63,908 nucleotides of DNA, taken from positions 1-63,908 of the forward strand of contig CAUYUJ010000296.1 in assembly GCA_963575745.1 (NCBI GenBank), given 5' to 3'. A program made the translations under genes and the position numbers. The stretch comes from Prorocentrum cordatum (lineage: Eukaryota). Below, piece after piece: positions 5,554 through 44,769 of this stretch. Numbering within the stretch: the stretch's first letter is position 1; each line of letters begins with the position of its first letter. The notes below the pieces were generated by a model. That model was not told the origin of the DNA. It ran no database searches and saw only the letters and a list, made by a program, of their open reading frames with translations.

Positions 5554-5719
5554 GTTCTCTTTAAGCATGATTTTCGATGTTTGTACATATCTGCAAGCGA
5601 CCCAGCTCCCCCATACCTCCCTCCAGAGAGGGCAAATAGGAACCTGCAGCGGCGGCTCTTTACAACACAGATGCCTGGCGCCCGCGCGCTCCAAAGACAC
5701 GTGAACATGCAGACATACC

Positions 5720-6040: not shown

Positions 6041-6106
6041 ATTCAGCCCGACGGCCCTCGGGCCATGAACCCGTCGGGGGTGGCGGCGGCAGAGGGCGAA
6101 GCTCTC

Positions 6107-6597
6107 CGCGTTGTGGCAAAGAGGCCTCGGTTGCTCAGCAAGAGCCCTGGGCTGGACGCGTGCAGCGCCTGCGAGGCCACGCTGCGGATGATGTGCGCGG
6201 AGATGAGCACGCAGGCCGTCGTGGCGAGGATCAGCAGAAGCCACAGGGCCACGTTCGTGTACCGGCTCCAGGCCCGGGGCACCGCGTGCGCGCCCTCAGA
6301 GCGCTCGATGAGGCCCCCGTAGGACGGGACGCGCAGCTGGCTGGTGCAGCGGATGAGCGACGCGTACGAGAGCTGCACGAGGCCCCCCAGCACGAGCAGC
6401 GCCGCCGGGCCGCCGAGGCAGCCGCAAAGGGCGAAGCAGTAGGGCGAGGCCACGATGCCGGTGCCCAGCATGCTCACCGCGAGAGAGGCGGCTCCTCCCA
6501 GGAAGCCCAGCCGCTCCTCGACGCCGGCCCAAGTGCCCGGCGGCTCACCGAGACATTCGTAGCCCTCCACATCAGCTTGACGCGAGGCCGTCGCCAT
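6107..6597 (-). CDS. Amino-acid transporter exon 1 (ATG at 6597)
   Basis: GFLGGAASLAVSMLGTGIVASPYCFALCG...SYGGL is the classic TM1-TM2 signature of Aa_trans; the ATG lies ~75 nt downstream of an SL relic. Confidence 0.9.
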
Positions 6598-6671
6598 GGC
6601 CGACGCCCAAACGGGCTCTGGTCTCTGCCGAGAGCAAGTCTTCCTGCCCGGGCCCGCGAGCCAAAAACAGC

Positions 6672-6693
6672 CCAGAGCCAGAATGGCTACGGA
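6672..6693 (-). promoter_or_regulatory. Relic dinoflagellate spliced leader (DinoSL), followed by a second more degenerate relic at ~6655-6671
   Basis: TCCGTAGCCATTCTGGCTCTGG = 19/22 match to DCCGTAGCCATTTTGGCTCAAG, followed by GCTGTTTTTGGCTCGCG. Confidence 0.9.
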
Positions 6694-7327
6694 CCGAATG
6701 CGATTCATTCGCAGCTCGCTCGCTGGATATAGGACTGCTCCGGCTGGGAGAGGGGGGAGGGGGGGGAGGGGAGGGAAATGGGGTGAGGGGAAAGGTGAAC
6801 GGGGGTAGGTCAGACAGTCCCACCGCCGCCAAATGTTGAGCTAAGTTGCCGGACCACTGGGCTCAGCCTGGGACCAAGACTGACTGGATCAAGCAACGAC
6901 CACACACACAGAATTTCTGGTACGGTAGCTGATGGCAAACACACGGTGACCCGGAAAGCCTCTGCAAACCGTGACGAACCAACAGGCGTGCCAGATCTGT
7001 CCGCGCCCAGTAAGCCATTCCAACCACAGACATACGCTGAATGAGGGCTCTGAAGCTCAGGGTTCAACCTGGGAGAAAGATCGACTGGATCGAAGACGAT
7101 GACGATGCTTGTCATCGTCAGCGTCATCATTATCATCGTTATTATCGTCATCGTGGCGACCGCGCAGGAAGCTTCGGGCAGCAAGGCCAGACAGAGACAG
7201 ACCACACGTCGTCCCTGGACAACTCTCGGCAAGGCGCGACGGACCGCGAGGCCGCGCCCGCGTGCCCCATCTGTCCGCACCCTGGCCAGGGACATCGCGG
7301 CTCGCCACGGCAGCCAGGGCCTGAGCA

Positions 7328-7608: not shown

Positions 7609-8403
7609 TCACGCCCTCGCGCTTGCCAGCACGACTCGGTCGACGAATTCTTCGTAGCTCAGCGCGCTGGACCCTGGCCGGTCGCACTGCGCCAGCAACG
7701 CCTCTCGACTGGCGCGTTCTATGCCGGGGCAGAGGGCATCGAGCAGGGCCCGCAGGTCCTCCTTGCGCATGCCGCCCTTCCCGCCCACGTCCCACGCACG
7801 GAACACCCGCTTCAGCTCTTCGGCCACGCGGTCGGGGCTCGACGTGAGGCTGACGGCGACCACGACGAGGCTCGCGTCGCCGGAGGTGGCGGGCAGCACC
7901 AGCTGCGAGCCCTCGCCGACCTTGTGGCTGAAGACGCGCAGGGTCGCGGCGGTGTCGCCCCAGCTTGGCGCCGCGGACTCCTCGTGCCAGCCCGCCTTCG
8001 GGAGCGAGTCCGGGAAGCCTCCGCTGCGCGCAGGGCGGTTCTTGTGCTTGATCTCCACGACCACGTAGGCCCGGAAGGGCGTGCTGCCGTGGAGACACAG
8101 CTTTGTGCCGCTGGAGATGATCTGGGGCCCCCTGAAGAAGGTGCCCCCCTTCATGGATGTGGGGATCCACGCCAGGCGGTTCTGGCAGTCGCTCCACACC
8201 AGCATCGTCTCCTCGATCTTCGCCCTGTCGAACTCCGTGCCCTCGCTCGTCTCGAGGGTGACGTCGAAGGCCTCCACGTCGGTCTTGGCGACCAGCATGA
8301 AGATGGCGCCGTCGTTGGCGAGCGGGGGGAGGCACAGAGGCTGGCGGGCTGCCACGCGCCGCGCTAGCACCGCCAGCCTGGACCCGGCCTTCCACTCTGG
8401 GAC
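7609..8403 (-). CDS. Four-repeat + EF-hand protein, terminal exon 6 (end of repeat 3, repeat 4, EF-hand pair)
   Basis: Acceptor CGCCAG|GTC; VPEWKAG...WSDCQNRLAWIPTSMKGGTFFRG...; EF-hands ELKRVFRAWDVGGKGGMRKEDL and CDRPGSSALSYEEF; stop at 7609. Confidence 0.88.
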   Translation of the reverse strand, partial: VPEWKAGSRLAVLARRVAARQPLCLPPLANDGAIFMLVAKTDVEAFDVTLETSEGTEFDRAKIEETMLVWSDCQNRLAWIPTSMKGGTFFRGPQIISSGTKLCLHGSTPFRAYVVVEIKHKNRPARSGGFPDSLPKAGWHEESAAPSWGDTAATLRVFSHKVGEGSQLVLPATSGDASLVVVAVSLTSSPDRVAEELKRVFRAWDVGGKGGMRKEDLRALLDALCPGIERASREALLAQCDRPGSSALSYEEFVDRVVLASARA

Positions 8404-8479
8404 CTGGCGCAGCGGGCCCCGGGAACGGCAGGGCCGTTACTCAATTTTTGTTTAGTTTTTGTTTGTTTGTTTGTTTGTT

Positions 8480-9155
8480 TGTTCCCTACCTAGGCTCTGC
8501 CTAGAAGGGTTCTTACTCTCTAGCTTAAAGGGGCCGGGCAGTGGAAAGCGCCCCGGGCGGTTCCCCCAGTCCCCGCCCCGCGGTTCCCCCAGTTGCGCCC
8601 CCTGGGTTCACCCAGCTTAGCTTAGCTTCAGTTTAGCTTCAGCTTCGCTTTAGCTTAGCTTTAGCTTAGCTTCAGCTTAGCTTTAACTTAGCTTTAGCTT
8701 AGTTTCAGCTTAGCTCTAGCTTAGCTTTAGCTTAGCTCTAGCTTAACTTCAGCTTAGCTCTAGCTTAGCTTTAGCTTAGCTCTAGCTTAGCTTTAGCTTA
8801 GCTTTAGCTTAGCTTTAGCTTAGCTCTAGATTAGCGTTAGCTTAGCTTCAGCTTAGCTCTAGCTTAACTTTAGCTTAGCTCTAGCTTAGCTTTAGCTTAG
8901 CGTTAGCTTAGCTTTAGCTTAGCTTCATCTTAGCTTCAGCTTAGCTTTTGTTTAGCTTTAGCTTAGCGTCAGCTTAGCTTCAGCTTAGCTTTAGCTTAGC
9001 TAGCTTAGCTTTAGCTTAGCTTTAGCTTAGCTTTAGCTTAGGTTTAGCTTAGCTCTAGCTTAGCTTTATCTTAGCTTTAGCTTAGCTTTACTGTTACTAC
9101 TAATGCTGCTTTCCTAGGGGCTCCAACTCCTAGGTAGGGTCGCACTGGGATAATT
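8480..9155 (+). mobile_element. Helentron/HINE (DINE-1)-like element with internal (TTAGC)n array; inverted second copy at 23903-24557
   Basis: Sub-terminal IR CCCTACCTAGG...CCTAGGTAGGG, a 5' hairpin, a conserved ~130-bp core, microsatellite 8615-9090, T-rich insertion sites and no TSD. Confidence 0.7.
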
Positions 9156-9394
9156 AGTTTGTTTCTTGGTGTATATATATAAACTGTCTCTGGAGCAAAA
9201 ACTGTACAAAGAACGGATCCTGGAGACAAAAGCAGGAACTGCTCTGGGACTGGAACTGGAGCCGCAGCCAGAACAACCGAACGGCGACGGGGCCGGGGAA
9301 GCGCTGCGCCAGAAGCAGCAACAAGAACGGCAGAACACAAGAACGATAACCAAAACGCTGCCCTGTCGTTTCCGGGGCCCACCAAGGGTCGGAC

Positions 9395-9640
9395 CTGGTC
9401 CCGCCGCTCCCAGCCGTCAGACAGCAGCGCATCGGGCAGCAGGCCCCCGCTGCGCCCAGGCCGGTTCATCAGCTCGCCCTCCACCATGGCGTACACCACG
9501 CTGGGCGCCGCGGAACGCACCGAGAACAGCGCGCCGGCCGGAGGCCCCGAGTGCGCCCCGCGCACGAGCGTGGCGCCCTTCATCCAATCTGGCACCTGCG
9601 TAAGCCGGTGGCCCTCGTCCCTCCAGGCCGACACGCCCTC
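9395..9640 (-). CDS. Four-repeat + EF-hand protein, exon 5
   Basis: EGVSAWRDEGHRLTQVPDWMKGATLVRG...GWERRDQ; acceptor CTAGAG|GAG, donor CAG|GTCC; in frame with neighbouring exons. Confidence 0.85.
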
Positions 9641-9644
9641 CTCT

Positions 9645-9770
9645 AGAAGCAGAAGAAGCGGCACAAGCATGAACTTTTGGCGCTCCGAGCGGATTTCTTG
9701 GATCTGCGCTGGGCCCCCCTCCCTGATGCGCGGAGCGCGCCAAGTGCGGCGCCGGAGGCGCCGACGGGGG
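9645..9770 (+). mobile_element. Half copy of palindromic MITE family A forming the 3' end of intron 4
   Basis: GAAGCAGAAGAAGCGGCACAAGCATGAAC...GGATTTCTTGGATCTGCGCTGGGCCCCCCTCCCTG matches one arm of the 12319-12513 element in opposite orientation. Confidence 0.8.
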
Positions 9771-9984
9771 GACCGACCGTCCTGTCATTCCTACAAGCCT
9801 GCCACGAAGTGTTCCAAGATGTTTTAAAACAGAAGCACGGTTCTCAGAACATGAACTCGATGTATGAAACCAACACGATCTCAGCCAGAAGTGTTCCAGG
9901 AACATGTCGTGCGGACCACACGAGGCTCTTAGAACACTCTCTGGTGGGCATATACCCTGAGATCCGATGTCGTGTTTTTCTCAA

Positions 9985-10110
9985 CACGGGGTCCCTGGAA
10001 GACTCGACCCATTCCCCAGGACCAGTTTTTCATCCTGAGTCGTTTTTTGACGGTCCCGAGGCCCGGTAAGGGCCCCTGGAGGCCGAAAGTGGTGACGAAC
10101 CTCCGTCGTG
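9985..10110. repeat. Dispersed repeat family B (GGTCCCTGGAAG...TGACGGTCCCG.GGCCCGG); copies at ~10770-10960 (-), 20400-20460, 23520-23625 (-), 30460-30540, 34700-34800
   Basis: Recurring degenerate ~120-bp motif seen by eye. Confidence 0.65.
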
Positions 10111-10157
10111 ACTTTTTTTCCATGCGCTGGACCTCTGGGCAAGTCGGCACGCCAGGA

Positions 10158-10159
<2 letters not shown>

Positions 10160-10253
<94 letters not shown>

Positions 10254-10285
10254 TTTTGTTTGTTTTTGTTGTTTGTTTTTTTTCC
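10160..10285. repeat. ~90-nt T homopolymer plus (TTTG)-rich tail
   Basis: Direct reading; it is poly(A) on the sense strand of intron 4. Confidence 0.95.
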
Positions 10286-10412
10286 GCGTCTGCTCTACAT
10301 GACCTTCCGCAGCCTTCGGATCACGGAGCGAACACCTGGATCATATGCTTCCAGCGCGCGGGGAAAAACGCTGCCACGGAACGCCGGGACGCTTCGCCTC
10401 TGCTCGAGACTC

Positions 10413-10590
10413 CTCCAGGGCCGCGAAGTCCAGGGCCTCGACGCGCGGCCCGCCGGGCACCAGCGCGCTGACCTCGAGGGCGGCGACCGGGGGCGCCGCC
10501 TCGGGCACGACGACCACGCACAGGGTGGCCTCGGCGCCCCGCGTGGGCGGCAGGCAGAGCCCGCAGCCCGCGCCACAGGGGCGGCTGTAC
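10413..10590 (-). CDS. Four-repeat + EF-hand protein, exon 4
   Basis: (M)YSRPCGAGCGLCLPPTRGAEATLCVVVVP...ALDFAALE; acceptor CTGAG|G, GA donor GAG|GAGT; completes repeat 2 by homology to repeats 1 and 4. Confidence 0.8.
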
Positions 10591-11592
10591 CTCAGCTGCC
10601 CCCCCTCCTCCTCCTCCTCCTCCTCCTCCTCCTCCTCCTCCTCCTCCTCCTCTCCTCCTCCTCCTCCTCCTCCTCCTCCTCCTCCTCCTCCTCCTCCTCC
10701 TCCTCCTCCTCCTCCTCCTCCTCCTCCTCCCCTCTCGAGCCATGACAAAATCCTGGCGGAAGGCTTCTCGCTATTTTCGGCCTCTGGAGGCCCTCACCGG
10801 GCCTCTCGGGACCGTCCAAAAACCGCTCGAGTCATGCCCAAATCATGACGGACAACTTCCGGCTATCTTCGGCCCCTGGATGCCCTCGCCGGGCCTCGGG
10901 ACCCCCAACACGACTCAGGATGAGAACCTGGTCCCGGGGAGTGGGTCCAGACCTCGGCGGGTCGACGTCACGAAACAATCATGACGTCGGGGGTCTGGGC
11001 AGCGCGCTGACGCGGAGCTCAGCGCGTCAGCTGAAAGCACTGGCCCGGCGCGATACGTTCGCCACAACGTGGGCCAACACGTGCCGAGCCACCACGCAGC
11101 GCGTTGACACGGTGGGCACGGTGCGTGCTGCGCTTCAGCACGGGCGTACAGCCGGGCCGAGGACAGGAGGAACATCCTTCAAGAGCACGAGGCCCTCCGC
11201 CGGTCACAGCACCCCAAACCACAAGATCACCGAGGGTACCCTTCCCCAGGATGCACAAGAGCATGCGACGAGCAAGAAGAACACCGTGGGTCAGGAGAGC
11301 CCAGAATCGATACATCGGATCGGCGATCGACATACATCGGATCGGCGGAAATCGGCAGCCGAGTCGGGGAAAGTCGAATCGGCGGACGTCGGCAGGCTAG
11401 TAGGCCTCCAGTGAGACATCGGAGCCCAGATCGGAGTCCGAAGTCGAATCGAATATCGGCATCGGGAGCCGTCCAAGTCGAATCGAATCGACTCGGGGGA
11501 ATCGAAACGAGCCCTGTGTGGCCGCCCTCCCCGAGCCGACCGCGATCTGGCACGCGTCGGCCCGGCCGCACCCGGGCAGCTGAGGGCTGCGC

Positions 11593-11648
11593 ATGGCCAA
11601 GGTCGCCGTGTCGTGCCAGCGTGGGGCCCCCGGCTCCGGCCGCCAGCC
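11593..11648 (-). CDS. Four-repeat + EF-hand protein, 56-nt exon 3
   Basis: GWRPEPGAPRWHDTATLA aligns with GWHEESAAPSWGDTAATL (repeat 4); acceptor CCAAG|G, GC donor AT|GCGC; the phase joins exon 4 exactly. Confidence 0.78.
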
Positions 11649-11691
11649 CTTGGCGGGGATGCTCCGGTGGCAACTCACGGGAGGCCTCCCT

Positions 11692-11925
11692 GGGAGGCCT
11701 CGCAGATGGGGTCGGAGCAGACAGGGTCGGAGGATTGCGCCGCATCGCCGATGCATCGCGATGCACTGGCGATGCGCAGGCGATGCATCGTCGACGTCGC
11801 CGATCTATCGGCGCCGTCGGCGTGGAGAAAATCGGGCTCCGCATCGAGCCGTATCGTCGATGCATCGTCGATGAGGCGCGATCCTCCGACCCCATCTACT
11901 CCGACCCCATCTAGGACGCCTAGAC
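11692..11925. mobile_element. Palindromic MITE family C (~200-230 bp); copies at 14441-14640, 24940-25075, 30738-30935, 59063-59277
   Basis: TIR AGGCCT..AGATGGGGTCGGAG.AG.TGGGGTCGGAGGATCGCGCCGCATCGCCGATGCATCG and its reverse complement; at least five copies. Confidence 0.85.
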
Positions 11926-12106
11926 TCCCATACCATCTCGTCGGCTCCTGCGATTCGACGCTGGTCGACGCCAATCGACGCCATATGACGCTAAATCGGC
12001 GCTCATCGACGCTGACAGCGACGCTCAATCGGCGCTGTCTTATCGACTCCCAGAAGCTCATCGACGCCAGAAACGGAATCGAGAGGGCATACCAGGCTGC
12101 CATGAC

Positions 12107-12310
12107 TTGCTGCCGAAGGATGCTCTCGTCCAGGCCGCCGCTACCCGCCTTCTCCAGCAGCGCGTACACGCGCGCCCGCGTGCTCGGCCACACGGCCAGC
12201 GCGGTGCCGTCGGGCAAGGCCTTGGGCCCCTGGAACAGCGTGCCGCCCAGGAGGCACCCTGGCACGCCCGTGAGCCTGTGTTCGCGGTCCTGCCAGGCCG
12301 TGACCCCCTC
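12107..12310 (-). CDS. Four-repeat + EF-hand protein, exon 2
   Basis: EGVTAWQDREHRLTGVPGCLLGGTLFQGP...SILRQQ; acceptor GTCGAG|GAG, donor CAA|GTCATG. Confidence 0.85.
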
Positions 12311-12318
12311 CTCGACGG

Positions 12319-12513
12319 CAGAAGAAGAAACAACGCCAGAAACATATAAACCTTTGGCGCTCCGCGCGGATTTCTTGGATCGGCGCTGGGCCCCGCTGGC
12401 GGCGCCTCCGGCGCCGCCCCCTGCGCGCTCCGCGCGCCAGGGAGGGGGGCCCGGCGCAGATCCAGGAAGTCCGCGCGGAGCGCCACAAGCTCATGCTTGT
12501 GCCGTTCTTGCTT
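12319..12513. mobile_element. MITE family A (195 bp, ~75-bp TIRs, 11-bp TSD; Mutator-like) constituting intron 1; other copies at 27011-27213, 37693-37889, 44401-44605, fragment at 34384-34450
   Basis: Perfect direct repeat CTCCTCGACGG at 12308-12318 and 12514-12524; long imperfect TIRs containing GGATTTCTTGGATC.GCGCTGG. Confidence 0.9.
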
Positions 12514-12516
12514 CTC

Positions 12517-13047
12517 CTCGACGGGGACCGCCCGATAGACCTGGCCCTCGGCAGTGGAGGTCATGGAGACGCTGAAGCTCTTGACGAAGATGGGCACGGC
12601 CACGATGAGGATTACCGCCCCGCTCTCCACGATCTCGGGGAGGGTCAGGGACCCGCCCGCCATCAGGGGGGCGCTGAAGGTGGCCATGACGGAGTCCTCT
12701 CCGCACCAACTGGGTGAAGCTTCCTCGCCGGACCATATCGGTGCCTCGGCCAGCCTCGTCAGCAGCCCCCCATCGCGACCCTTGGCGGCGGCACAGTCTT
12801 TTTTCCTTGGGCCCTCCGACTCCACTGACACATAAACTCGGCAGGAACCAGCATCGCCTGCAGTCAGCGTGACGATGGTGCCTTCAAGGATCTTCCCGTG
12901 CTGCGTCCTGACGAGCGCGCCTCCCACGAGGTGAGGTGGGATGTTCGTCAGCTTGTAGTCCGCGTCCGACCATGCAGCACCGCCGTCAACCACTGTATCA
13001 TAGTCAAAGACGACGCCCTTGTTCGATGTGGCCTGCACGACCGACAT
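12517..13047 (-). CDS. Four-repeat + EF-hand protein, exon 1 (ATG at 13047)
   Basis: MSVVQATSNKGVVFDYDTVVDGGAAWSDADYKLTNIPPHLVGGALVR...YRAVPVE; ATG ~80 nt after an SL relic; strong GC3 codon bias. Confidence 0.88.
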
Positions 13048-13126
13048 GTGGTGTGGGCGCCCTGGGCAAGCACACCGGGCTGGCGCGGGAACTCGCACCG
13101 AGCCGCGCGCTGAGCCACGACCGCTG

Positions 13127-13148
13127 CCTGAGCCAAAACGGCTACTGA
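13127..13148 (-). promoter_or_regulatory. Relic DinoSL, with a possible older relic at ~13109-13125
   Basis: TCAGTAGCCGTTTTGGCTCAGG = 19/22 match to DinoSL; downstream GGTCGTGGCTCAGC. Confidence 0.88.
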
Positions 13149-14629
13149 ACCCTATATGCCGGTCCGCGCTTCTGTAAGATGTGGCACCCTTGCGGCATAA
13201 GACCCTTCACACACTCAAAAAGGCACACAATGCATCCCAGGGGCCTCATGTGCACGACCCACAGGCATAGTGGCGGGATGGGCCTGAAGTAAACATTGAA
13301 TGCAGCAACCAGCCAAGAGTCGAAGGCCTAGAGGTTGACACGGGCACCAATGGCGGCGGTGTGCCTCCACCGAGGGCAGACGATCCTGGCTTCGGTGACA
13401 GTTGTCATATTCGTGCTGCCCAGATGGCCGAGATATCAACACCAGCACCCAAATCTAGGATCATCTTCCCCTGGTGGAGGCAACCCCCTGTTTGGTGTTG
13501 GTGTCCATTGTTAGGCCTCCAACAAGGGGCCCCTCTCGGGAGGAGGGAGCGAACAAGGAGCCCACAGAAGACGCACAGTGGAGGCCAGTCCACAAGAAGC
13601 CTTCCACACGAAACCCCACCCTGAGACCCCAGGACGCCCGTGGATCTTTGGTGTGGGCACGTCACGCTTTTTATCGCAGAAGCATCGAAACTCAGGGCAC
13701 CCTGGAGGCGAGCAGGGTGTTTCTTCGCATGGGCCCCCGCTGCACGCGCGCCCAGCCACCCGCACGCGAACGCGGCCCCCCGGCCCGCGTTGCCAGCCTC
13801 GTGCCACGAACTCTCGCGCAGTGCATGCTCTCCGAGCCTACAGCCGGACCTGTGCCAGCCAAGCCCTGGAGACGACAAGGCCGCTTTGCACTGGTTCCGT
13901 TCAGCCGTTTTTTCTGCCGGTTCCGACGCCGCTTTTTTTACCGGTTCCGTCGCTGTTTTCTTACCGGTTCCGGCTCCGTTTCCCATCCTGGAGCCTTTTT
14001 TGTTGCCGTTTCGGGTCGCCGCTTTTTTTTTGCCGCTTCCATTTTCAAGAGACACTTGTTCGGACACGGTGAAAAAACGGCTACACGCGAGAGCGACCCT
14101 GGATAGGAGTGGCCTTTGGCGCGCGGCTTTTGGGGGCCGCGGGAGTGCCAAAAACAAGCGCGCAAGGCGCTGCCGCCTCTCGTTCGGAGGTCGGGGGGCC
14201 CCAATGGGCCCGCACCAAAGGTCACTCCGGCGAAGGGTCACTATTACGCGTGGTCGACAGCATACCATCCCTCGAGAGCGTGAGACCCTCCGCCAGCCAA
14301 AAACGAACAGAACATCCAAGGGTACCCTCCCCAGGGTGCGGAGGAACATCCAGCAAGCGCGAAGAACACCAGGCTACCCTTCCCGAACGGACCTCGACCT
14401 GACACCTCGGCCAGACTGTACGACAATTCGTGTGCACGCTTAGAGGCCTCCTATATGGGGTCGGAGTAGATGGGGTCGGGGGATCGCGCCGCATCGCCAA
14501 AATATCGGCGAAGCGGCCAGGTGTGGGGCTCGATTTGCTTCACGTCGACGTCGCCGATGCATCGCCCACGTCTCGACGACGCATCGCCGGTGCATCGGCC
14601 AGAACGCGACTTCACCCATACGCATCCCT

Positions 14630-16200
14630 GCAAGTGTTGCGCACAGCCGAAACGAATGTGCGCGGCGCTTCGGCGAGAACCGCATTTTGAAAAGGAGCCC
14701 CCCTCAATCGTTAAAGCTGCAAAGAACTTTTAGGACGAATGTGCGTAGAGCTAAAGCGAAAACCGCATTTTGACAAAGACCCGCCCTGCTTCCTTCAAGC
14801 GGTTGCAAACTTTTAAAATGTGAGCGGCACTACGGCGAGAGCTACGTTTTAGAAAAGGACCCGCCATCCATGAATAACAAGGCTGCCAACATTCAAAACG
14901 AATGCTCGCGGCGTTGATGCCAGAACCGCAGTTTGAAAACGACACACCCCCTATCCTTGAAACTGCCGCAACGATTCAAAACACATATGCGCGGCGCCAC
15001 AGCGACAACCACTTTTTTCAAAAGACCCACCTTCCATCCGTGAAGCTATTGCAGACTTTTTGACGAATGTGCGCGGCACTGAAACGATAAACACACGGTG
15101 GCAAGAACCCGCCCCGCATCCGTGAACATGCTGCAAACACGCGGCGCTAAAGCCATATTCGCATTTCGGAAATAGCCCGACCTCCATAATTCAAGCTGTA
15201 GCGAACTTTCAAAACGAATGTGTGCGGCGCTAAGGCGAGAGCCACATTTTGAAAAAGGGCCCGCCCTCCATGCTTGAACCTGTTGCAAACTTTGGATACG
15301 AATGTGCGCGGCGCTGAGACGATAATCCCATGTTCTCAATGCCCGAAGCCCATTTCATGCTCTAAGCTATTGCGAATCTCAACCTTCAGGATCACAGACG
15401 GTGAAGGAAAACATCAAGCGAAACGCCTGGCCCGCCCTACCAACACGTCTGGGGGTGCGACCGGGAGGGGATTATTCACAACTGTAAGGAAAAGAAATGG
15501 AGGAGGAAGAGGAGGAGGAGGAGGAGGAGGAGGAGGAGGACCAGTGTACACCCAAGACCCATCAAAGATGTTGCATCACACCCTCCCTCCTAGTTCCCTC
15601 ATCATAAATCCCTACAAGGATTCATTCTCACTGAAGGAAAAGCCCCGTTGGAAAACAACTGTTTGAAGACCCTGAACCGTGCCAACACACCATTACTGGA
15701 ACTATAACGCCGCGAATGAACGTCACTGTTGCGTTCTGACGATCCCGAACCGTGCCATACCACCGTTCTTGGGACTTCAACTTCAACACCGCACATGAAT
15801 GTTACAATTGCGCTCTGACAGTCCTACACCGTGTTAAACACACCATTTCTGGGACGTCAGACTTAGGACCCGTGAAACTGTTTCAACTCTTCACACGAAT
15901 GTGCACGACACTGAAGCGAGAACCACATTTTGAAAAGGAGCCGCTCTCCATACGTGAACTGTTGCAAGGTTTTTGAAACGAATGTGCGTGGCGCTACGGC
16001 GATATGCACATTTTGAAAACGTCCTGCCCTCCATCCTTGAAGCTCTTGCAAATTTCAAGCTTGATGATCATACATCGTGAGCATGTCTCAAGCGAAACGC
16101 CCGGCCCGCCTTGTCGACGCGTATCGGTGTGCGAGAGGGAGGAGCTATGTATGAAAGGAGAAATGACGGAGGAGGGGGAGAAGGAGGAGTGAGGGAGGCG
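14630..16200 (+). repeat. Composite element H with ~82-bp tandem units (GAATGTGCGCGGCGCT..GCGAGAACC.CATTTTGAAA); related copies at 25960-26620 (-), 46390-46990, 610-720 (-)
   Basis: About 9 degenerate units at 14640-15320 and 2 more at 15880-16050, with conserved unique flanks (CCAGTGTA.AC.CAAGA..., GCGAAACGCC.GGCCCGCC) bordered by GAG tracts. Confidence 0.8.
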
Positions 16201-16569
16201 AGAAGTCAGAAGGAAGCTGGAACGTCTCTTGGGGACGCCCCCTCGGGTGGGGAGGGGGCGGGGGCGCGCGTGTGCCGCGCCACGCTGCGCTCCACGCTGC
16301 GCCACACGCGCGCTCCGCGCTCCATGCTGCGCGAGCGCGCGGCCACACGCACGCTCCACGCGCCACCCGCGTGCTCCGCTCGTCACCGGGGCGCTCCACG
16401 CTGCGCCAGCGCGCGACGCGCGGCCGGCTGTCGGCCCCCGCGCTGCCCGCGGGCGGCCCGTCCGCCCCCCGGGCTGGCTTGTCGTCCGCGCGGGCTTCCA
16501 ACGCCCGCGCTCGCCCAGCGCCTCTGCTGTCCGGCTGCTCGCGAGGCAGGAGGGCACAAAGAGGGGGGT

Positions 16570-18210
16570 GGGCCTCTAAGAAGCCGGGGTAGTTCTTAGA
16601 AGGCGGAGTGGTCTTCTCTCTTCGAGGGGCCTGGGGGCTTTTCAGACTGCTTCTTAAAACCGCGAGTGGCTTCCATGATGCCCCCTGTCTTGTGAGAAGC
16701 TTCCCTGCCTTCTCAGAAGGCCGCCCCTGTCGCGCCACTCCTTTGTGCCGTCTGGATACCTTCTTCTTCTCCGCGTTGTCCTTCTTCGCGGGCTCGCTGC
16801 TGGGGCTGGCTGCCTGTGCCCTCTGGCTGCCGCTGCGTCCACCAGGGCGTTGATGCCGCCGCGCCAGGCCGCTCGGTCGCCCTCACGTCCGGCTCGCTTG
16901 GCTCGGTCGCCCTCACGTCTGGCTCGCTTGGCCTGCTTTGGCTGCTCGCCAAGCCCCTGCACTGGCGCGCCTGCCGCCACGGTCCACCCACCTTTGGATT
17001 CCACGGCGGCTGGCGGCTCCCACCGACTCCGTTTCGGCGGCTTGGCCTCGCAGATCTGCCCGCCCTGCTCTTCCGTCACCCCTGGCGGCCGTGGCTGAGC
17101 TGGCTACTGCTGCAGTGATGATGCCCGGGACCTTGGCCCGCCGTGCGCTCCTCACCGCCGCGTGCAAATTCGCTTCAGGCTCCCCAGCATCTGCTGGGTC
17201 CTCTGCATCTCCAGGTTGGACTTCTCCAGCTTCTGGTCGGCCTCCTTCGGTTTCCAGGCCCGCCGTTCTTGCCGAGCTGCTGGCATGGGAATGTTGCACA
17301 CCACTATCTCCACCAGGTGGTGCACTTGCTGCCGCGTGTCGCCGCACATCAGAGGATCTTGTTCTGCTTCGTGCTCGGAGTCCAGGGCGCCCTCCTCGCA
17401 GGAACTCTTTCGCTAAGCGGTGCTGCTGCGCCCGCCTGCGCTGGTCGGTAACGTGCGCCTTGCCCATTTTCCCGCCGACCTCGCCGTCCTGTACGCCATG
17501 CCTCACGGCATATGTCGCTGGCCAGGCGCATCCACGGCAGTCTGGCCTGCTCGGATCCCTGCGGGTGGTGGTCCGCGGGCGCGTCCAGCCACTGGTGTCT
17601 CATCTCCGCAAGAAATACTGGATGCACTTCGCCTGCCGGATGGCCCATGGTTGTCCTTCATGAAGTGCAGCGTGCCACCAGGATGCCACATCCGCCAAGC
17701 TGGCAGTGAGATACCGCTGCCTTCCCCAAGCTGCAGCTCGCTCCGGATCGCTCTCGGGGTCGGTGCGTGTGACTGGTGCTGGCTCCGCGACCGCCCGGCC
17801 TCGCTCCGCTGTCGCCGTGTTCTGGTCTTGCTCAGCTGACACGGCTCGCGCCTCGGCTCCAAATCGTGCCGCCACCAGCTAGTGTTCTTCTGCGGCTCTG
17901 GCGCAGCCACGCTGCGAACCACTCGGTGATGCTTAGTTCCGTACCCGTGGTCGCGCAGGTGTACTGTCTAACCATGCGCGGCGGCACATCTCTTCTGCCA
18001 TGCGCCTCGGTCGCACCTGTTGTCTTTGCTCTGGTGGCTGGGGAAACAAACAGCTGTCTGCAGCCTTGGTGCCAGAGTGCCTGGCTGAATGGCTGTACGC
18101 AGGTTGCTTGCCAGGTGTGGCTTGTCGTCCTGGCGTCTGCGGGGATCTACCATGTGCCTAGCTCGGGTATGGCCGTCTGGAGGCGTCGGACCCTGTCCCA
18201 GGCCCCCTCC
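16570..18210 (-). pseudogene. Degenerate coding-like segment, possibly a retroelement gag/ORF1-type remnant
   Basis: Frameshifted K/R/E-rich coiled-coil-like pieces, a C-x2-C remnant (PDCRGC) and an in-frame 30-nt duplication (AKRARREGDR); no recognisable catalytic motif. Confidence 0.3.
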
Positions 18211-24654: not shown

Positions 24655-27283
24655 GGCTACGGAGACCCTCCGGGCACGGGCCACCTCTGCCCCATCACGG
24701 CGTGTGCCCCCGCGGCACCGCCGCCGACCGTGTCGGGATCGCCGCGCTGCCTCCGCTGGTTTCGGTGGTGGCCCTCTTTAAAGGCCTCTCTCCTCCTCCT
24801 CAGCCTCCTCCTCCTCCTCCTCCTCCTCCCTCCTCCTCCTCCTCCTCCTCCTCCTCGTCCTCCTCCTCCTCCCCTCCTCCTCTCCTCACCACCTCCTCCT
24901 CCACCACCACCTCCTCCTCCTCCTCCTCCTCCTCCTCCTCCCAGATGGGGTCGGAGCAGATGGTGCCGGAGGATCGATCCGCATCGCCGACGTCGACGTG
25001 AAGCAGATCGGGCCCCAGGTCGAGCCGCATCGGCTATGCGTCGGCGATGCGGGGCGACTTTTCGACCCCATCTACAGTCGGACTTGATTGGGCAGGACAC
25101 GCGAGAGGACACAAAACCCTTCCGCGGTCCACATTACCATAGGAATGTAGGAGACATGGGTCGCAAGGCACCGGACACGAGGGTGCCCTTGATCTGGCAG
25201 GGCCGACCTACTAATCCGGGCCGCCTCTGCTCCGACCCCGTCTGGGGAAGCCTGGGCTCTTGCCCCAGCGCGGGCCGCGCATCCGGATACAGTGCCTTCT
25301 TCTCCGCTGCCGCCCCGCCTCCTCTCCCCTCGCCCCGCGACGTGCGACGCGCGGCCATCGTCGCGCCCTCGCGCCGCCCCCCCCCCCCCTGGAGAAGGTG
25401 CAGCCGCCCTGGCGCAGACCGCGACGCGCGGTTGTCTCCACGCCCCCCGCGGGTGACCCAGCCCCTTTTTCTCCCCCCTCTCCAGCATGTGGGTGCGTAC
25501 CCTCCCGAATGCACATCGAGCGAATGGGTCGATTTCTGCAGCTGCCATTCGGAAATCAATGATTTCCAAACCATCCCGCCCGGCGGGCACAAGGGGATCT
25601 AGCGCCATGGGGAGGAACGAGTGGGAGGAGTACGATGCCAGATGTCACGCGATTAGCGCGTGTCTTTCCCCTTCCTCTCCCTCCTTCTTCTTGTTTCTCG
25701 TCCTCCTTTCCTTTCCTTTCCTTTCCTTTCCCCTCCTCTCCGTACTTGATCAACGCCTCCTCCTCCTCCTCCTCTTCCTCCTCCAACTCCTCCTCCTCCT
25801 CCTCCTCCTCCTCCTCCTGCCTCCTCCCAGGGCACCCTCCTCCTCCTCCTCCTCCTCTTCCTCCTCCTTGCTCCTGCCAGGGGGCCCTCCTCCTCTCCCC
25901 CGCCTCCTCCTCTGGGAATTGTCCTTACAATTATCTCTTCCCTGCCGCACCCCGGGACGAGTCGGTAGGGCGGGCCAGGCGTTTCGCCTGAGACCTGCTC
26001 ACCATTTGTGATCGTTCAGCTTGAAATTGGCAACCGTCTCGCAGATAGAGGGCGGGTCGCTTTCAAACTGTGGCTCTCACCTTAGCGCCGCGCACGTTCG
26101 TCTTAAGCGTTTGCAAGAGTTTGGCGGATGGAGGCCGGGCGGTTTGCAACATGTGGCTCTCGCATTAGCACCGCGTGAATTCGTCTTCACCGTTTGCACG
26201 AGCTTAACGGAGAATGAGGGACACTTCTTTTTCAAACTGTGGCTCTCGCCTTAGCGCCGCGCATATTCTTCTTATGAGTTCACAGCAGTTCAAATATTCT
26301 TATGGTTCACGTCCTCAGAATGATGTTTTGGCGCGTTCTAGGGTTGTCAAGGCGCAGCACTCACGTTGATTTGCGTGGTTGAAATCCCAAGAAGTGATTC
26401 GGCACGACTCAGAACCGCTAGGACTCAACAATCAAATTTATTCGCGGCGTTGAAATCCCAGCAATGGTGTTCCGGCACGGTCCGAGATTTTGAATAGGTT
26501 GTCTTCCAATAGGGCACTCCCCTCAGTGAAAATGAACCTTTGTAGAGACCTATGATGAGGGAACCTGGGGGGAGGGTTATTGCAACATCGCTGATGAGTC
26601 TTGGATTTACGCTGGTCCTCCTCCTCCTCCTCCTTCTCCCTCGTCCCTCGTCCCTCCTCCCTTCCCCTCCCCTCCCCCTCCCGCCCTTCCCCTTCCCGCC
26701 CTCCCCTCCTCTCCCTCCCCTCTCTTCCTGCTCCTTCTTCTTCTTCTTCTTCTTCTCCTTCTTCTTCTTCTTCTTCTTCTTCTCCCCCCCCGGGCAGACC
26801 GACGAATCACGCCGTCCCCCAGCCGCCCCCGGCCGGCCGCCGGGGGGGGGGGGGGGACCGCCCCGCGGAGGAGGCCGCCGCGCCCCCCGACCTGCTTCTG
26901 AGCCTCTGGCACTGGCGGGGGGGGCGCGCTGGCGGGGTCGCCCGCTCCGCCCCTCCGACCGGGCGCGCGCTGCCGCCCACCGCGCTCCGCCAGGGGAAGG
27001 AGCACGCAGGGAAGAAGAGCAAAAGGGCATAAGGATAACTTAAGCTTGTGGCGCTCCGCGCGGATTTCTTGGATCTGCGCTGGGCCCCCCTCCCTGGCGC
27101 GCGGAGCGTGCCAGGGGCGGCGCCAGGGGCGGCGCCGGAGGGGGGGTCAGCGCAGATCCAAGAAATCTGCGCGAAGCGCCAAAAGTTTAGGTTCATGCCA
27201 TTGTCTCTTCTTCGAATGCAGTCAGACATAGCTTGATGATGAGTTGCGTGCTCAGTGGGAGCGCAACTGCTCCATCGTTCATA

Positions 27284-31379: not shown

Positions 31380-34050
<2,671 letters not shown>

Positions 34051-36602: not shown

Positions 36603-38384
36603 TAGGTCAAGGCAGAAGAAGACCCCGTAACACTCGGTCTCGGCTGCTGGCCTCAGCATCCGATAGCCCTCAACCCGCACAGAGCATCTGGTACAGCGCC
36701 GAGCCGTCGCGCGGGCACGCGGGCGCCGCAGGCCGGGGCCTGCTGTGCTCGAGCCGACGAGGCTTGAGGGAGGAGGAGGGGGAGAGGGAGGAGGGGGAGG
36801 GGGAGGGGGAGGGGGAGGGGGAGGGGAGGGGGAGGAGGGGGAGGGGGAGGGGGAGGAGGGGGAGGGGGATGGGGAGGGGGAGGGGGAGGAGGAGGAGGAG
36901 GAGGAGGAGGAGGAGAGGAGGAGGAGAGGAGGAGGAGGAGGAGGAGGAGGAGGAGAGGAGGAGGAGGAGGGGGAGGAGGAGGAGGAGGAGGAGGGGAGGA
37001 GGAGGGAGGAGGAGGAGGAGAGAAGGGGGAGGAGGAGGAGGGTGGAGGAGGAGGAGGAGGAGCATTAGCATGAGCATGATCAGATGGCAAAGGCAACGTG
37101 TACAACAACCTTAAACATGCATCATATATTACGCCTGCGAACTTCTTGATGCAAGCTCGGCCTGCCCGAGGACCTTAGGCTACAACCCTCTGGATATTCT
37201 GTCCAAGTGTTCAACTCCAGACGGGGGTGCAGGAGCAGAAATAGGAGGAGGAGGAGGAGGAGGAGGAGGAGGAGGAGGAGGAGGAGGAGGAGGAGGAGGA
37301 GGATGAGGAGGAGGAGGAGGAGGAGGAGGAGCAGGAGGAGGAGCAGGAGGAGGAGGAGGAGGAGCAGGAGGAGGCCCGAGGAGGACAAGGACAAGGGCAC
37401 CCGCATATAGGGGGTACAAGGCCCGAGGAGCAGCAGGAGGAGGAGGCCTGGTCGCCGAGAGCTCGTGCTCACGCAACCTCTTCCTCTGTCCGAAGGCGGC
37501 GGCCGGCGCCCCTCAGTCGAAGTAGCGCGGGTCGGCCCGGGGCGCGGGCGGCGACGCGCTGGCCGCCGGGCCGCCGGAGGCCTCTCGCTCGGGGGCGGGG
37601 GGGGGGGAGAGCGGGCGGAGGCAGGGTGCGCGGCAGGCGCGCGCGGCGACTGCCCAGCAACGTTTTTTGCCCTGCGGTGCACTGTGTGGGCAGAGGAAGA
37701 AGAGACGCCACAAGCGTAAACTTCTGGCGCTCCGCGCGGATCTCTTGGATCTGCGCTGGGCCCCCCCTCCCTGGCGCGCGCAGCGCGCCAGGGGCGGCGC
37801 CAGTGGCGCCACCGAGGGTCCAGCGCAGATCCAAGAAATCTGCGCGGAACGCCAACAATTTATGTTTATGGCGTTTTTTTTATTCTTCGAGTTATACTGC
37901 CGAAATCTATAGTAAGGACGGGCGGTAAGGACGCAGGGGCCTCGGGCGCCGAAGTTGGCACTTTTCGGCCGGCTTGCTGCTAACTCCCTGAGGGGCTGGC
38001 AAGTGAAAACCGCGAAGGACGGGCCGCAGAGGCAAGGACGCAAGGGTACCCTGAGGACATCAGTGCGTCCTCACTATGAGTTTTGACTGTATGGTCGCGT
38101 GCATTTTGTAGCGTTGCCGACTTGCGTCAGTCACACACCCATGTTAGCAGGCATGCTGTATGACCCCTCTCAGGAGCTCTCGGGAGCCCGACGGGGCTGA
38201 TGTGACCCCGTGTTGTCCCAATGACCCAACGGGGCTGTGTGACCCCGTGTTGGCCATGACAACCGCTCCAGTACACAGACCTTGTGACGCGAACAAAATG
38301 GACGGCAGCATGTGTATTTAATTGTTTGCTGTTTCCCCACCCCCCCACCCCCTTCTGCGTTGGGTTCTCGTTTTGAGCAGGGTA

Positions 38385-43330: not shown

Positions 43331-44769
43331 GTCGGCTACACGCAAGAGTGACCCCAGGCAAGAGTGACCTGTGGCGTGTGTCTTGTCTATCCTTGCCCGC
43401 GATGCGACAGTGTCGGCCCGCGCGCCTGGGTTTGCCCGGCTTGCCCTCCCCCCCTCCCCCGGAGAGCCGCGCCCCGAAGGCCACTCTGGTTGAGGGGCGC
43501 CCTGACGCGTCGAACATCTCGCGTGGAGAGGCAATCTGCAAAATCGTTGAACGTCAAAACTAGGGAAAAAACAAACCTACCTCGCTTTTGACCACCCTCG
43601 CTTCCACGAGATACCAAACGATGCCAAATTGCAGCCTGTACTGGTCAGGCCGCTTGACGAGGAGGCGCGTGGTATGGCTTGGTTTTGCCTGGAAGCGCAA
43701 GCGGGGTAGGTAATTCACGCTCTGAAAAACGGTCCACTGATGGCAGACGCGAAGGGCTGAGGATGTGTCGAAGGGGCAAGGATACCAGGGCACCCTTGCA
43801 AAAACGCTCTGCCCTTGTTACGAGCTTTGACTGTGTGTCGCGTATTATTACCAGTCTTCCTCTTCTGCTTCTTCTTCCTCGACGTGTGCCAGACTCCAGA
43901 CACCCTGATTCCCCAAAAAATGCCGTCATAATTCTACTTCCGCTGGCCTTCTATCAGCGGTCCAGCCGCTGTTTCATTTTCTCTGGCCTTCCGCCGAGGG
44001 CGTGGATGCACCGAAAGCGAGGCATTTTCAAAGACGAGAACAATGTCATGAAGCGATTGTCTCAAAATACGTTCCAAGATTTCTGGAGATTCCAACGCTC
44101 CCTGGCCACTCGTACTTGGCCACTCGTCCCCGGTCGCTCGGGACAATACTGGAACGCTTCGAACGTATCGCCACCATGGCTTCTTGCCCATCTGATTCCT
44201 GTGACGCTCCATATGGCGCACTCCTCGGCTTCCTTCTTTCCACAGCCCTGGGGACGAAAGCATGAGGTGTCCACGCGTGCGCACGTCGGCGGTAAGAATG
44301 GCAGCAAGGGAGACGTGGGACAAAGAAATAGCAACGACCACCATCAACTCTCGCCATACGGATTGAGAGGGGCATAGCGATGGGAAGAGCTCCTCCGTCG
44401 CTCGGGGAAAGAGCAATGGCATAAAAATCAACTTTCTGCGCGGATTTCGTGGATCGGTGCTGGACCCCCCTCCCTGGCGCGCAAAGGCGCGCAAAGCGCA
44501 CTAAGGGCGGCGCCGGAGGCGACGCCCGGGTGCTCCAGCGCCGGTCCAAGAAATCCGCGCGGACCTCCGAGCAGTTCTGTTTACGTCATTGTTTGTTTCC
44601 CGAGTCTCCTCCCCCGAAACCTCAGAGATCTTGGAACTCTGCCTCCTCTGAATCCTCGTGTTTGAAGCCTTGGAACTCTGACTCCTCTGGGAACTTTGAA
44701 GTCCGACTCCTGGAAGCCGTGGACGTCATGGATACCTTGAAAATGACGTCTTCCAAGTATTGCAAATGA

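What the first reader, a model, noticed from the sequence alone, without database searches (positions are those of the whole stretch)
12308..12524. A Mutator-like MITE is itself a precise GA-AG intron (introner)
Seen: a 195-bp palindromic element flanked by a perfect 11-bp duplication (sense CCGTCGAGGAG) interrupts the CDS. Removing 12516-12311 (206 nt, starts GA, ends AG, next base G) restores YRAVPVE|EGVTAW, matching the sister repeats. Both splice sites come from the AG|GA inside the TSD. At least four other family members occur in the window, and the 44401 copy also has an 11-bp (9/11) duplication containing GAGGAG. Known: dinoflagellates accept GA donors and AG|G acceptors, 9-11-bp TSDs with long TIRs typify Mutator-like elements, and introners are described in algae and some dinoflagellates. 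Inference: GA-donor tolerance makes any AGGA-containing target, which is very common in this GAG-rich genome, a scar-free intron-gain site.
Basis: partly seen in the sequence, partly recalled or inferred. Interest (0 to 1): 0.8.

Follow-up and report, generated by a model that had tools for sequence, protein, structure and literature searches.

The report
Transposon-made intron in a dinoflagellate gene
A 195-base hairpin transposon that landed inside a dinoflagellate gene is cut out of the messenger RNA exactly, so it acts as an intron; this is a clear example of a process already described in these algae.

Summary
A 195-bp palindromic element (12319-12513) lies between a perfect 11-bp direct repeat, inside a minus-strand gene. 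RNA contigs from 4 of 4 runs laid (4 studies; two are polyA RNA-seq, two only guessed to be RNA) join 12307 to 12514. They skip 206 nt, with 11 letters of slack. Of the 12 equivalent cuts, only GA..AG|G fits dinoflagellate splice rules.

The six exons translate exactly to a 668-aa protein from public data.

All five introns of the gene have repeated boundary letters. Four have exactly one G[T/C/A]..AG|G option (P about 0.003 for random sites). One, intron 2, has none, and I cannot explain it.

A second remnant of the same element family ends intron 4, at the matching Glu|Glu site of a sister repeat.

A relic spliced leader upstream marks the gene as a retrogene, so its introns are probably later gains.

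This kind of intron is already known. Transposon-derived introns (introners) that take both splice sites from an AGGH duplication, and GA donors in young introns, are published for dinoflagellates. Introner elements are also reported in Prorocentrum cordatum.

The "Mutator-like" label rests on duplication length alone. An insertion-free expressed copy is not excluded.

The parts
12319..12513 (.). Family-A palindromic non-autonomous element (MITE), 195 bp
   Evidence: Arms 52 nt, 83% complementary. Inverted-end score 49 vs shuffle maximum 23. RNA hairpin z = -8.76. Other copies at 72-88% identity.
12514..12524 (-). Target-site duplication, upstream copy (sense CCGTCGAGGAG); holds the inferred GA donor (12516-12515)
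12308..12318 (-). Target-site duplication, downstream copy; holds the inferred AG acceptor (12312-12311), next base G (12310)
12311..12516 (-). Intron 1 (206 nt, phase 0) written as GA..AG|G; the cut may lie anywhere within the 11 repeated letters
   Evidence: Joint 12307->12514 skips 206 with 11 ambiguous letters, one contig in each of 4 runs. Only 1 of 12 cuts is G[T/C/A]..AG.
12517..13047 (-). Exon 1 coding part (ATG at 13047); the transcript reaches up to about 13141
   Evidence: 100% match to P0001 residues 1-177. Contigs cover 12514-13143.
13127..13148 (-). Relic spliced leader (DinoRL-type); the trans-splice acceptor AG is at 13143-13142
   Evidence: 19 of 22 positions match the DinoSL printed in PMC12014239, compared by eye. 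Contigs of 3 runs stop at 13143.
12124..12310 (-). Exon 2 (its 3' end is ambiguous by 8 nt)
11663..12123 (-). Intron 2 (461 nt) between 8-bp direct repeats GAGCATCC (12125-12118 and 11664-11657). No G[T/C/A]..AG cut is possible. It holds a nested palindromic repeat (about 11695-11921).
   Evidence: Joint in 3 of 4 runs. 9 equivalent cuts listed. Repeat copies elsewhere. End inverted repeat not above shuffles.
11593..11662 (-). Exon 3
10591..11592 (-). Intron 3 (1002 nt), GC..AG|G. It consists of the first duplication copy GCGCAGCC, then an element with a 12-nt perfect terminal inverted repeat. The exon keeps the second copy GTACAGCC (6 of 8 alike).
   Evidence: The joint was placed a few nt off and was corrected with P0001 (Y instead of R).
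10413..10590 (-). Exon 4
9641..10412 (-). Intron 4 (772 nt), GA..AG|G, at CTGGAG|GAG...CTAGAG|GAG. Same Glu|Glu position as intron 1 but in sister repeat 3. Flanking 11-mers match 8 of 11.
   Evidence: Not covered by the reads laid.
9650..9774 (.). Family-A half copy that forms the 3' end of intron 4
   Evidence: 85-88% identity to other copies. Alignment.
9395..9640 (-). Exon 5
8404..9394 (-). Intron 5 (991 nt), GT..AG|G, with both sites inside a perfect 8-bp direct repeat CCAGGTCC (9398-9391 and 8407-8400). Has sub-terminal inverted repeats.
   Evidence: (score 33 vs shuffle maximum 28).
7609..8403 (-). Exon 6 with stop codon; weak EF-hand pair match (below Pfam's cut-off) near the C-terminus
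44390..44616 (.). Family-A copy (44401-44605) with an 11-bp duplication matching 9 of 11, in the same N5+GAGGAG register; no clear coding context
27041..27213 (.). Family-A copy, no duplication recognisable
37691..37886 (.). Family-A copy, no duplication recognisable

Best explanation
A non-autonomous DNA transposon (family A: 195 bp, almost fully palindromic) inserted into the coding sequence of a dinoflagellate gene, probably in Prorocentrum cordatum or a close relative. It landed between two Glu codons and duplicated 11 bp (sense CCGTCGAGGAG). Because the duplicated block contains AG|GA, the upstream copy supplies a GA donor. The downstream copy supplies an AG acceptor followed by G. The spliceosome therefore removes the element plus one copy of the duplication (206 nt, phase 0), and the mRNA is restored without a scar.

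Shown: the anatomy, the multi-copy family, the precise removal in RNA contigs, and the exact match of the joined exons to a public protein.

Inferred: the cut position inside the repeat (GA..AG|G), removal by the spliceosome, and gain after retroposition of the gene.

The whole gene fits this picture. It carries a relic spliced leader, which marks a retrogene. All five of its introns have repeated boundaries, and three of them have significant terminal inverted repeats.
For: 1. An 11/11 direct repeat flanks a hairpin element.
2. Five other copies lie at unrelated places in the window, at 72-88% identity.
3. The joint 12307->12514 skips 206 nt with 11 ambiguous letters. It is seen in one contig in each of 4 runs from 4 studies, with contigs of 576-2173 nt. 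X11 and X14 are polyA RNA-seq.
4. Only 1 of 12 equivalent cuts is G[T/C/A]..AG, and G follows it.
5. Six exons joined by coordinates give 2007 nt, which translate exactly to P0001 (668 aa). P0001 aligns to the 47%-identical homologue P0002 with no gap at any of the five junctions.
6. Four of five introns have exactly one canonical option (GA, GC, GA, GT donors; each AG|G). With the same elements dropped at every site of this coding sequence, the chance of 4 or more of 5 is 0.003.
7. GA donors, an excess of GA in young introns, and both splice sites taken from an AGGH duplication are published for dinoflagellates. So are identical repeated intron boundaries of 2-11 bp with a conserved AG|G.
8. 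A relic spliced leader lies upstream, and contigs end 2 nt before its CC.
Against: The RNA evidence is assembled contigs, not reads. They cannot show the cut within the repeat, rare unspliced forms, or the strand. Removal of the element plus one duplication copy is exactly what an insertion-free gene copy would look like, and the tool did not report whether the joined form exists in DNA runs (table 5b).

Intron 2 in the same contigs has a perfect 8-bp repeat but no G[T/C/A]..AG option. So either non-canonical removal occurs here, or that insertion is absent from the expressed copy.

X3 and X4 are only guessed to be RNA. Only 2 of 6 family copies in the window touch an intron boundary, and both are in one gene. 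Intron 4 was not covered by the reads laid.
Confidence: 0.78

Rival explanations
1. The transcripts come from another gene copy, allele or strain that lacks the insertion (an empty site). The copy in the window would then be a recently hit, perhaps dead, paralogue, and nothing is spliced at 12311-12516.
For: The joined form equals the empty site by construction. Perfect duplications (11/11 for intron 1, 8/8 for introns 2 and 5) suggest young insertions that may be polymorphic. Intron 2 has no canonical cut. Whether the joined form exists in DNA runs was not given. Dinoflagellate genes are highly duplicated.
Against: Exons in the contigs are identical to the window: 0 other letters over 190 + 630 nt in X3 and X4. 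The 2 other letters in exon 3 are explained by the misplaced intron 3 joint. All 668 residues match. Introns 3 and 4 have decayed duplications (6/8 and 8/11), yet each has a single G[T/C/A]..AG|G option. Random insertion sites rarely give 4 of 5 splice-competent introns (P = 0.003), although a GAGGAG target preference could account for two of the four.
Confidence: 0.1
2. Removal is precise but does not depend on GA/AG. The hairpin and the duplicated boundary guide excision, as proposed for the non-canonical introner elements of Amoebophrya, and the GA..AG in intron 1 is incidental.
For: Intron 2 is removed at an 8-bp repeat with only GC..GA, CA..AG, AT..GC, GA..CG and similar options. Intron 1 folds so that its two ends meet. 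Amoebophrya has more than 60% non-canonical introns, some with inverted plus direct repeats (passages).
Against: Four of five introns here do have one canonical option each. Published core-dinoflagellate introns follow G[T/C/A]-AG. The inverted ends of intron 2 are not above shuffles, so a hairpin guide is weakest exactly where it would be needed.
Confidence: 0.07
3. An ordinary older intron into which a MITE later inserted; the flanking repeat is coincidence.
For: Family-A copies also lie in places with no clear coding context, and MITEs often sit in introns. Intron 4 holds only half a copy among other repeats.
Against: Intron 1 consists of nothing but the element plus one duplication copy. 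An 11/11 repeat at the element's ends has a chance of about 4e-7. Sister repeats 1 and 4 and the homologue P0002 read straight through this position.
Confidence: 0.03

Closest known systems
Introner-like elements of Polarella glacialis, classes 13/14 (Roy et al., bioRxiv 10.1101/2020.10.14.339549; text parts 1-2 read)
   Same: A non-autonomous DNA transposon creates the intron. Both splice sites are recruited from an AGGH core inside the target-site duplication. The mRNA is scar-free, there is a strong phase-0 bias, and GA donors are commoner in young introns.
   Different: Their duplications are 3-8 nt (4 nt for classes 13/14); here it is 11 bp, with the AGGA at positions 8-11 of a longer block. 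The species is different. Here the three readable duplications share an N5+GAGGAG register.
Introner elements reported in the Prorocentrum cordatum genome (Dougan et al. 2023: preprint passages; supplement passages of PMC10666404)
   Same: Probably the same organism: an annotated P. cordatum protein holds a translated family-A copy, and the reported genome G+C is 59.7%. These are introns with inverted repeats plus direct repeats at both ends, making up 2.4% of its introns.
   Different: They were found by a pattern (inverted repeats of 8-20 nt, direct repeats of 3-5 nt). In what I read, no families, duplication lengths, splice-site origins or RNA junctions per element are described. I did not see their tables of genes.
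Identical repeated intron boundaries (IRIB) of dinoflagellates (Mendez et al. 2015, PMC5032977; passages)
   Same: A 2-11 bp duplicate flanks the intron and is kept once in the mRNA. AG|G is conserved and the cut is ambiguous within the repeat.
   Different: That paper did not link the repeats to transposon duplications. Here the link is direct: the intron body is a multi-copy hairpin element.
Algal introners of Micromonas and Aureococcus (Huff et al. 2016, as cited; not read)
   Same: MITE-like elements with inverted ends and duplications that create introns on insertion.
   Different: There one splice site is usually carried by the element, with GT/GY donors. Here neither site is in the element.
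Non-canonical introner elements of Amoebophrya (Farhat et al. 2021, PMC7789003; passages)
   Same: Hairpin-forming introns with direct repeats across the boundaries. This is relevant to intron 2 of this gene.
   Different: There most introns lack any conserved dinucleotides and U1 was not found. Here four of five introns follow G[T/C/A]-AG|G.

Membership tests
Introner (transposon family whose copies are spliceosomal introns) | Multi-copy element at unrelated loci | tested here: met
   Five other copies in 64 kb at 72-88% identity. A translated copy sits inside an NCBI P. cordatum protein.
Introner (transposon family whose copies are spliceosomal introns) | Transposon hallmarks at the intron ends (inverted ends, target-site duplication) | tested here: met
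   11/11 duplication. Inverted-end score 49 vs shuffle maximum 23.
Introner (transposon family whose copies are spliceosomal introns) | The element (plus or minus the duplication) is the whole intron and is absent from mature mRNA | tested here: met
   Joint skipping 206 nt in 4 of 4 runs. Joined exons equal P0001. Caveat: the evidence is contigs only, and an insertion-free DNA copy is not excluded.
Introner (transposon family whose copies are spliceosomal introns) | Many copies of the family each form an intron in different genes | tested here: inconclusive
   2 of 6 copies in the window touch an intron end, both in one gene. No genome is held. The metagenome scan for the family core found 0.
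Introner (transposon family whose copies are spliceosomal introns) | Intron absent at the orthologous site (a gain) | not testable with these tools
   Only proteins of homologues are available, with no genomic DNA. Indirect support comes from sister repeats 1 and 4 being uninterrupted and from the relic spliced leader.
Mutator-like (MULE) non-autonomous element | Target-site duplication of about 9-11 bp (recalled, not from a call) | tested here: inconclusive
   One 11/11, one 9/11, one 8/11; two copies show none.
Mutator-like (MULE) non-autonomous element | Ends shared with an autonomous element that encodes a MULE transposase | tested here: not met
   None of 231 ORFs of 130 aa or more in the window hit any transposase family in Pfam. 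The rest of the genome could not be searched, so this is absence in 64 kb only.
Dinoflagellate spliceosomal intron (G[T/C/A]..AG followed by G) | Boundary dinucleotides and a G after the acceptor | tested here: met
   GA..AG|G is available and is the only such cut of 12. The rule is as given. The actual cut was not observed.
Dinoflagellate retrogene (DinoRL-tagged) | Relic of the spliced leader in the DNA just upstream, with a new leader spliced at its AG | tested here: met
   13148-13127 matches 19 of 22 positions of the DinoSL printed in PMC12014239, compared by eye. Contigs of X11, X3 and X4 end at 13143.

The most novel reading that the evidence does not exclude
In this core dinoflagellate, transposon-derived introns are removed at their duplicated boundaries even where no G[T/C/A]..AG exists, as in intron 2 (8-bp repeat GAGCATCC). 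That would mean boundary choice can be guided by the duplication or hairpin, as proposed for Amoebophrya. Family A would then be a GAGGAG-targeting element that is born splice-ready between Glu-Glu codons, which would explain the two parallel gains at homologous sites of one retrogene.
Probability: 0.12. Interest if true: 0.75.

Novelty: new member of a known kind. Interest (0 to 1): 0.4.

Why it matters
This is a compact, RNA-supported case of how a transposon becomes an intron at the moment of insertion. The duplicated target supplies both splice sites, so the protein is unchanged.

The gene adds three points worth a genome-wide check:
- an 11-bp duplication class not listed in the dinoflagellate introner work I read, where duplications were 3-8 nt;
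- two insertions of one family at homologous Glu|Glu codons of internal repeats, which points to a GAGGAG target preference and to parallel intron gain;
- a retrogene that has probably regained all five of its introns from mobile elements.

The one intron with no canonical cut is the item most likely to teach something new.

Tried and rejected
No whole genome is held for the window, so a genome-wide census of family A was impossible.

A scan of metagenome contigs with a degenerate 26-nt pattern of the family core found 0 matches. A protein-guided scan with P0001 found 118 pattern matches but no relative.

The earlier-findings look-ups gave nothing relevant.

Rfam found 0 families in the whole window.

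Pfam on the exons gave nothing for the repeat domain, only a weak EF-hand match.

A naive count of 11-mer direct repeats at 150-300 bp spacing was dominated by microsatellites and was dropped.

Third-codon-position G+C (GC3) and frame inspection around the copies at 27041, 37691 and 44401 gave no clear coding context. I therefore could not test whether they are introns.

A search for deposited gene models of this gene in the 97-310 aa range found none.

I considered recursive or nested splicing to rescue intron 2 and rejected it by reasoning: the exon-adjacent letters are fixed, and any GC or GA donor paired with the only AG acceptor would change the mRNA length, which P0001 excludes.

The joint 11717->14523 in X3 (40 foreign letters between its two sides) looks like a contig from another copy of the nested repeat and was ignored.

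Parts of the stretch without read cover (13670-19500, mostly) say nothing.

Full report
**Observation**

On the + strand, CTCCTCGACGG occurs at 12308-12318 and again at 12514-12524. The two copies are identical and 206 bp apart. The 195 bp between them have inverted arms of 52 nt at 83% complementarity. An end-to-end inverted alignment scores 49, against a maximum of 23 in 200 shuffles. The RNA of the sense (minus) strand folds into one long hairpin: -155.9 kcal/mol, z = -8.76, with 0 of 200 shuffles as stable.

The gene is on the minus strand. Removing 12311-12516 restores ...YRAVPVE|EGVTAW... in frame. At two fixed places, an 11/11 match has a chance of about 4e-7 at this base composition (my arithmetic).

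BLAST of the element against the window finds these other copies:
- 9645-9774, a half copy
- 27041-27213
- 37691-37886
- 44435-44563
- 40292-40379, a weak match
- short matches of 54 nt (34382-34435) and 16 nt (50993-51008)

The copy at 44401-44605 has an 11-bp duplication matching 9 of 11. The copies at 27041 and 37691 show none.

**RNA evidence**

A run search with 11900-13300 listed 18 holders. Each held about 0.52-0.57 of the sampled words, roughly the exonic share of the stretch.

I laid four runs from four studies on 10740-19500. X11 and X14 are polyA RNA-seq. X3 and X4 are only guessed to be RNA. All four hold one contig (576-2173 nt) that joins 12307 to 12514, skipping 206 nt. Eleven letters fit either side of the joint, and 190 letters lie on the shorter side.

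The same contigs in X11, X3 and X4 also join 11656 to 12118, skipping 461 nt with 8 ambiguous letters.

These are assembled contigs. They show that the joined form exists in RNA libraries. They do not show where the cut lies within the repeat or whether unspliced forms are rare. The tool also did not say whether the joined form occurs in DNA runs.

**The gene**

Exon 1 is 100% identical to a 668-aa protein in the public collection (P0001, source jgi). tblastn places all of P0001 on six window exons at 100% identity.

Joined from coordinates, the six exons give 2007 nt that translate exactly to P0001 plus a stop. The exon coordinates are:

| Exon | Coordinates |
|---|---|
| 1 | 13047-12517 |
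| 2 | 12310-12124 |
| 3 | 11662-11593 |
| 4 | 10590-10413 |
| 5 | 9640-9395 |
| 6 | 8403-7609 |

The protein has four internal repeats of about 145 aa and a weak C-terminal EF-hand match, below Pfam's cut-off. A homologue at 47% identity (P0002) aligns with no gap at any of the five junctions, so all five removals leave no scar.

**All five introns**

I listed every donor/acceptor pair consistent with P0001.

| Intron | Length | Boundary repeat | Canonical option |
|---|---|---|---|
| 1 | 206 nt | 11 bp, 12 equivalent cuts | only GA..AG\|G |
| 2 | 461 nt | 8 bp (GAGCATCC), 9 cuts | none (GA..CG, AG..GG, GC..GA, CA..AG, AT..GC and so on) |
| 3 | 1002 nt | 2 cuts | GC..AG\|G |
| 4 | 772 nt | 11 protein-consistent cuts | only GA..AG\|G |
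| 5 | 991 nt | perfect 8 bp (CCAGGTCC) | GT..AG\|G inside the repeat |

For intron 3, the joint was placed a few nt off, because CAGCC recurs there. The Tyr in P0001, where the window would read Arg, corrects it. Intron 3 is built as follows: a first duplication copy GCGCAGCC, then an element with a perfect 12-nt terminal inverted repeat that ends in AG. The exon keeps the second copy, GTACAGCC (6 of 8 alike). This is the pattern published for elements with 8-nt duplications.

Intron 4 lies at CTGGAG|GAG...CTAGAG|GAG.

Terminal inverted repeats stand above shuffles for introns 1, 5 and (just) 3. They do not for introns 2 and 4.

I then dropped the same five element bodies at every site of this coding sequence. 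A G[T/C/A]..AG option arises at 11-33% of sites, depending on the element. The chance that 4 or more of 5 have one is 0.003.

This argues that the boundaries are under splice-site constraint. It therefore favours real splicing over transcripts from an insertion-free copy. A target preference of family A could, however, account for two of the four.

**Parallel gain and target site**

Intron 4 ends with about 125 nt of a family-A copy, at 85-88% identity to the others. It lies at the same Glu|Glu boundary as intron 1 (...VE|EGVTAW in repeat 2...LE|EGVSAW in repeat 3).

The two protein repeats are only about 45% identical, and the four-repeat layout is shared with P0002. An intron inherited from before the repeats duplicated could not have stayed 85% identical. 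I therefore infer two independent insertions.

The three readable duplications all have five variable letters followed by GAGGAG:
- CCGTC+GAGGAG
- CGGGG/CGACG+GAGGAG
- CCCTG/TTCTA+GAGGAG

The coding sequence has 34 AGG[A/C/T] sites but only 4 GAGGAG sites, and family A occupies 2 of those 4. GAGGAG on either strand covers 1.4% of window positions, or 0.37% outside perfect (AGG)n tracts. Three of five copies in that register would arise by chance with P about 3e-5 or less. This is a post hoc test.

The sample is three duplications in one window.

**Retrogene**

On the minus strand, 13148-13127 matches 19 of 22 positions of the dinoflagellate spliced leader as printed in PMC12014239 (compared by eye). 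Contigs of three runs end at 13143. That is 2 nt before the relic's CC, which is what a new leader ending in AG and spliced at the relic's AG would give.

The gene therefore descends from a reverse-transcribed mRNA, and its five introns are probably later gains (inference). This fits their transposon-like ends.

**Organism**

The following point to a dinoflagellate: GA and GC donors, the AG|G rule, the relic spliced leader, and about 60% G+C.

Translating straight through the element finds one NCBI protein named "unnamed protein product [Prorocentrum cordatum]". It contains a translated family-A copy at 48% identity. The published P. cordatum genome has 59.7% G+C. I take the window to be from that species or a close relative. 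This is not proven.

**What is known**

- Roy et al. (preprint text parts 1-2 read) describe dinoflagellate introner-like elements with duplications of 3-8 nt. Their classes 13/14 take both splice sites from an AGGH duplication. They also report GA donors enriched in young introns, and phase bias arising from recruited exonic letters.
- Mendez et al. (passages) describe identical repeated intron boundaries of 2-11 bp with a conserved AG|G.
- Dougan et al. (passages) report introner elements in 2.4% of P. cordatum introns. They found them with a pattern of inverted repeats of 8-20 nt and direct repeats of 3-5 nt. I did not see their gene tables.
- The words "Mutator", "MULE" and "Prorocentrum" do not occur in the main texts of Gozashti et al. 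2022 and 2025. A library search for "introner" plus "Mutator" gave 3 unrelated papers. Their datasets were not seen.

The mechanism is therefore already described. What may be new is this family, its 11-bp duplication and its GAGGAG register.

**The "Mutator-like" label**

The only support is the duplication length. The 9-11 bp range for that superfamily is recalled, not taken from a call. None of 231 window ORFs of 130 aa or more hit a transposase. The label stays a guess.

**Unexplained**

Intron 2 is removed in three runs at a perfect 8-bp repeat with no G[T/C/A]..AG option. Nested or recursive splicing cannot rescue it without changing the mRNA length. Three readings remain:
- the insertion is missing from the expressed copy, which would also weaken the case for intron 1;
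- a non-AG acceptor is tolerated;
- removal is guided by the boundary itself, as proposed for Amoebophrya.

**Verdict**

It is a new member of a known kind. Interest is moderate.

Noticed in passing
window 11657-12125 (minus strand): Intron 2 (461 nt, perfect 8-bp boundary repeat GAGCATCC) is skipped in RNA contigs of 3 of 4 runs, yet none of its 9 equivalent cuts is G[T/C/A]..AG. With the cut after 12124 the intron would start GCATCCTT. That is one letter away from the minor-spliceosome donor consensus RTATCCTY quoted in PMC5032977. No matching branch site was looked for.
   Followed up: partly
window 13127-13148 (minus strand): A relic spliced leader (19 of 22 positions) lies 80 nt upstream of the ATG, and RNA contigs end at its internal AG. 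The gene looks like a retrogene that later acquired five introns.
   Followed up: partly
window 11695-11921; also 30739-30938, 59065-59276, 14443-14602, 24937-25075: A second palindromic repeat family (rich in ATCGNCGAT-like motifs) is nested inside intron 2, with at least four other copies in the window at 69-85% identity.
   Followed up: partly
window 10160-10283: A 124-nt homopolymer run (A on the gene's strand) lies inside intron 4, next to sequence repeated elsewhere in the window. It could be the tail of a retroposed insert.
   Followed up: no
window 10583-10591 and 11585-11593: The read-laying tool placed the intron 3 joint a few nt off because CAGCC recurs at both ends. The protein (Tyr, not Arg) gives the true GC..AG|G cut. 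This is a reminder that joints with listed 'other letters' near a boundary need checking.
   Followed up: yes
protein P0005 (NCBI, Prorocentrum cordatum, 283 aa): Residues of about 33-95 of an annotated protein are a translated family-A element. The element is therefore either exonised or wrongly included in a gene model elsewhere in that genome.
   Followed up: no
window 2895-6840 (minus strand): Three ORF pieces match the amino-acid transporter family Aa_trans in order. This is a split gene on the same strand directly downstream, as in unidirectional dinoflagellate gene clusters.
   Followed up: no
window 31574-33725, 47850-48768, 8617-9090: Very long simple repeats: (GTA) about 714 copies, (GCTGAG) about 165 copies, and an 11-mer x43 inside intron 5. 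Many (AGG)n/(CCT)n tracts run through the window.
   Followed up: no
window 12349-12451 in RNA runs: Many short RNA contigs with foreign flanks align to the core of the element, and summed depth there is several times that of the exons. Other family-A copies are therefore present in RNA libraries, as unspliced, exonised or UTR sequence.
   Followed up: no
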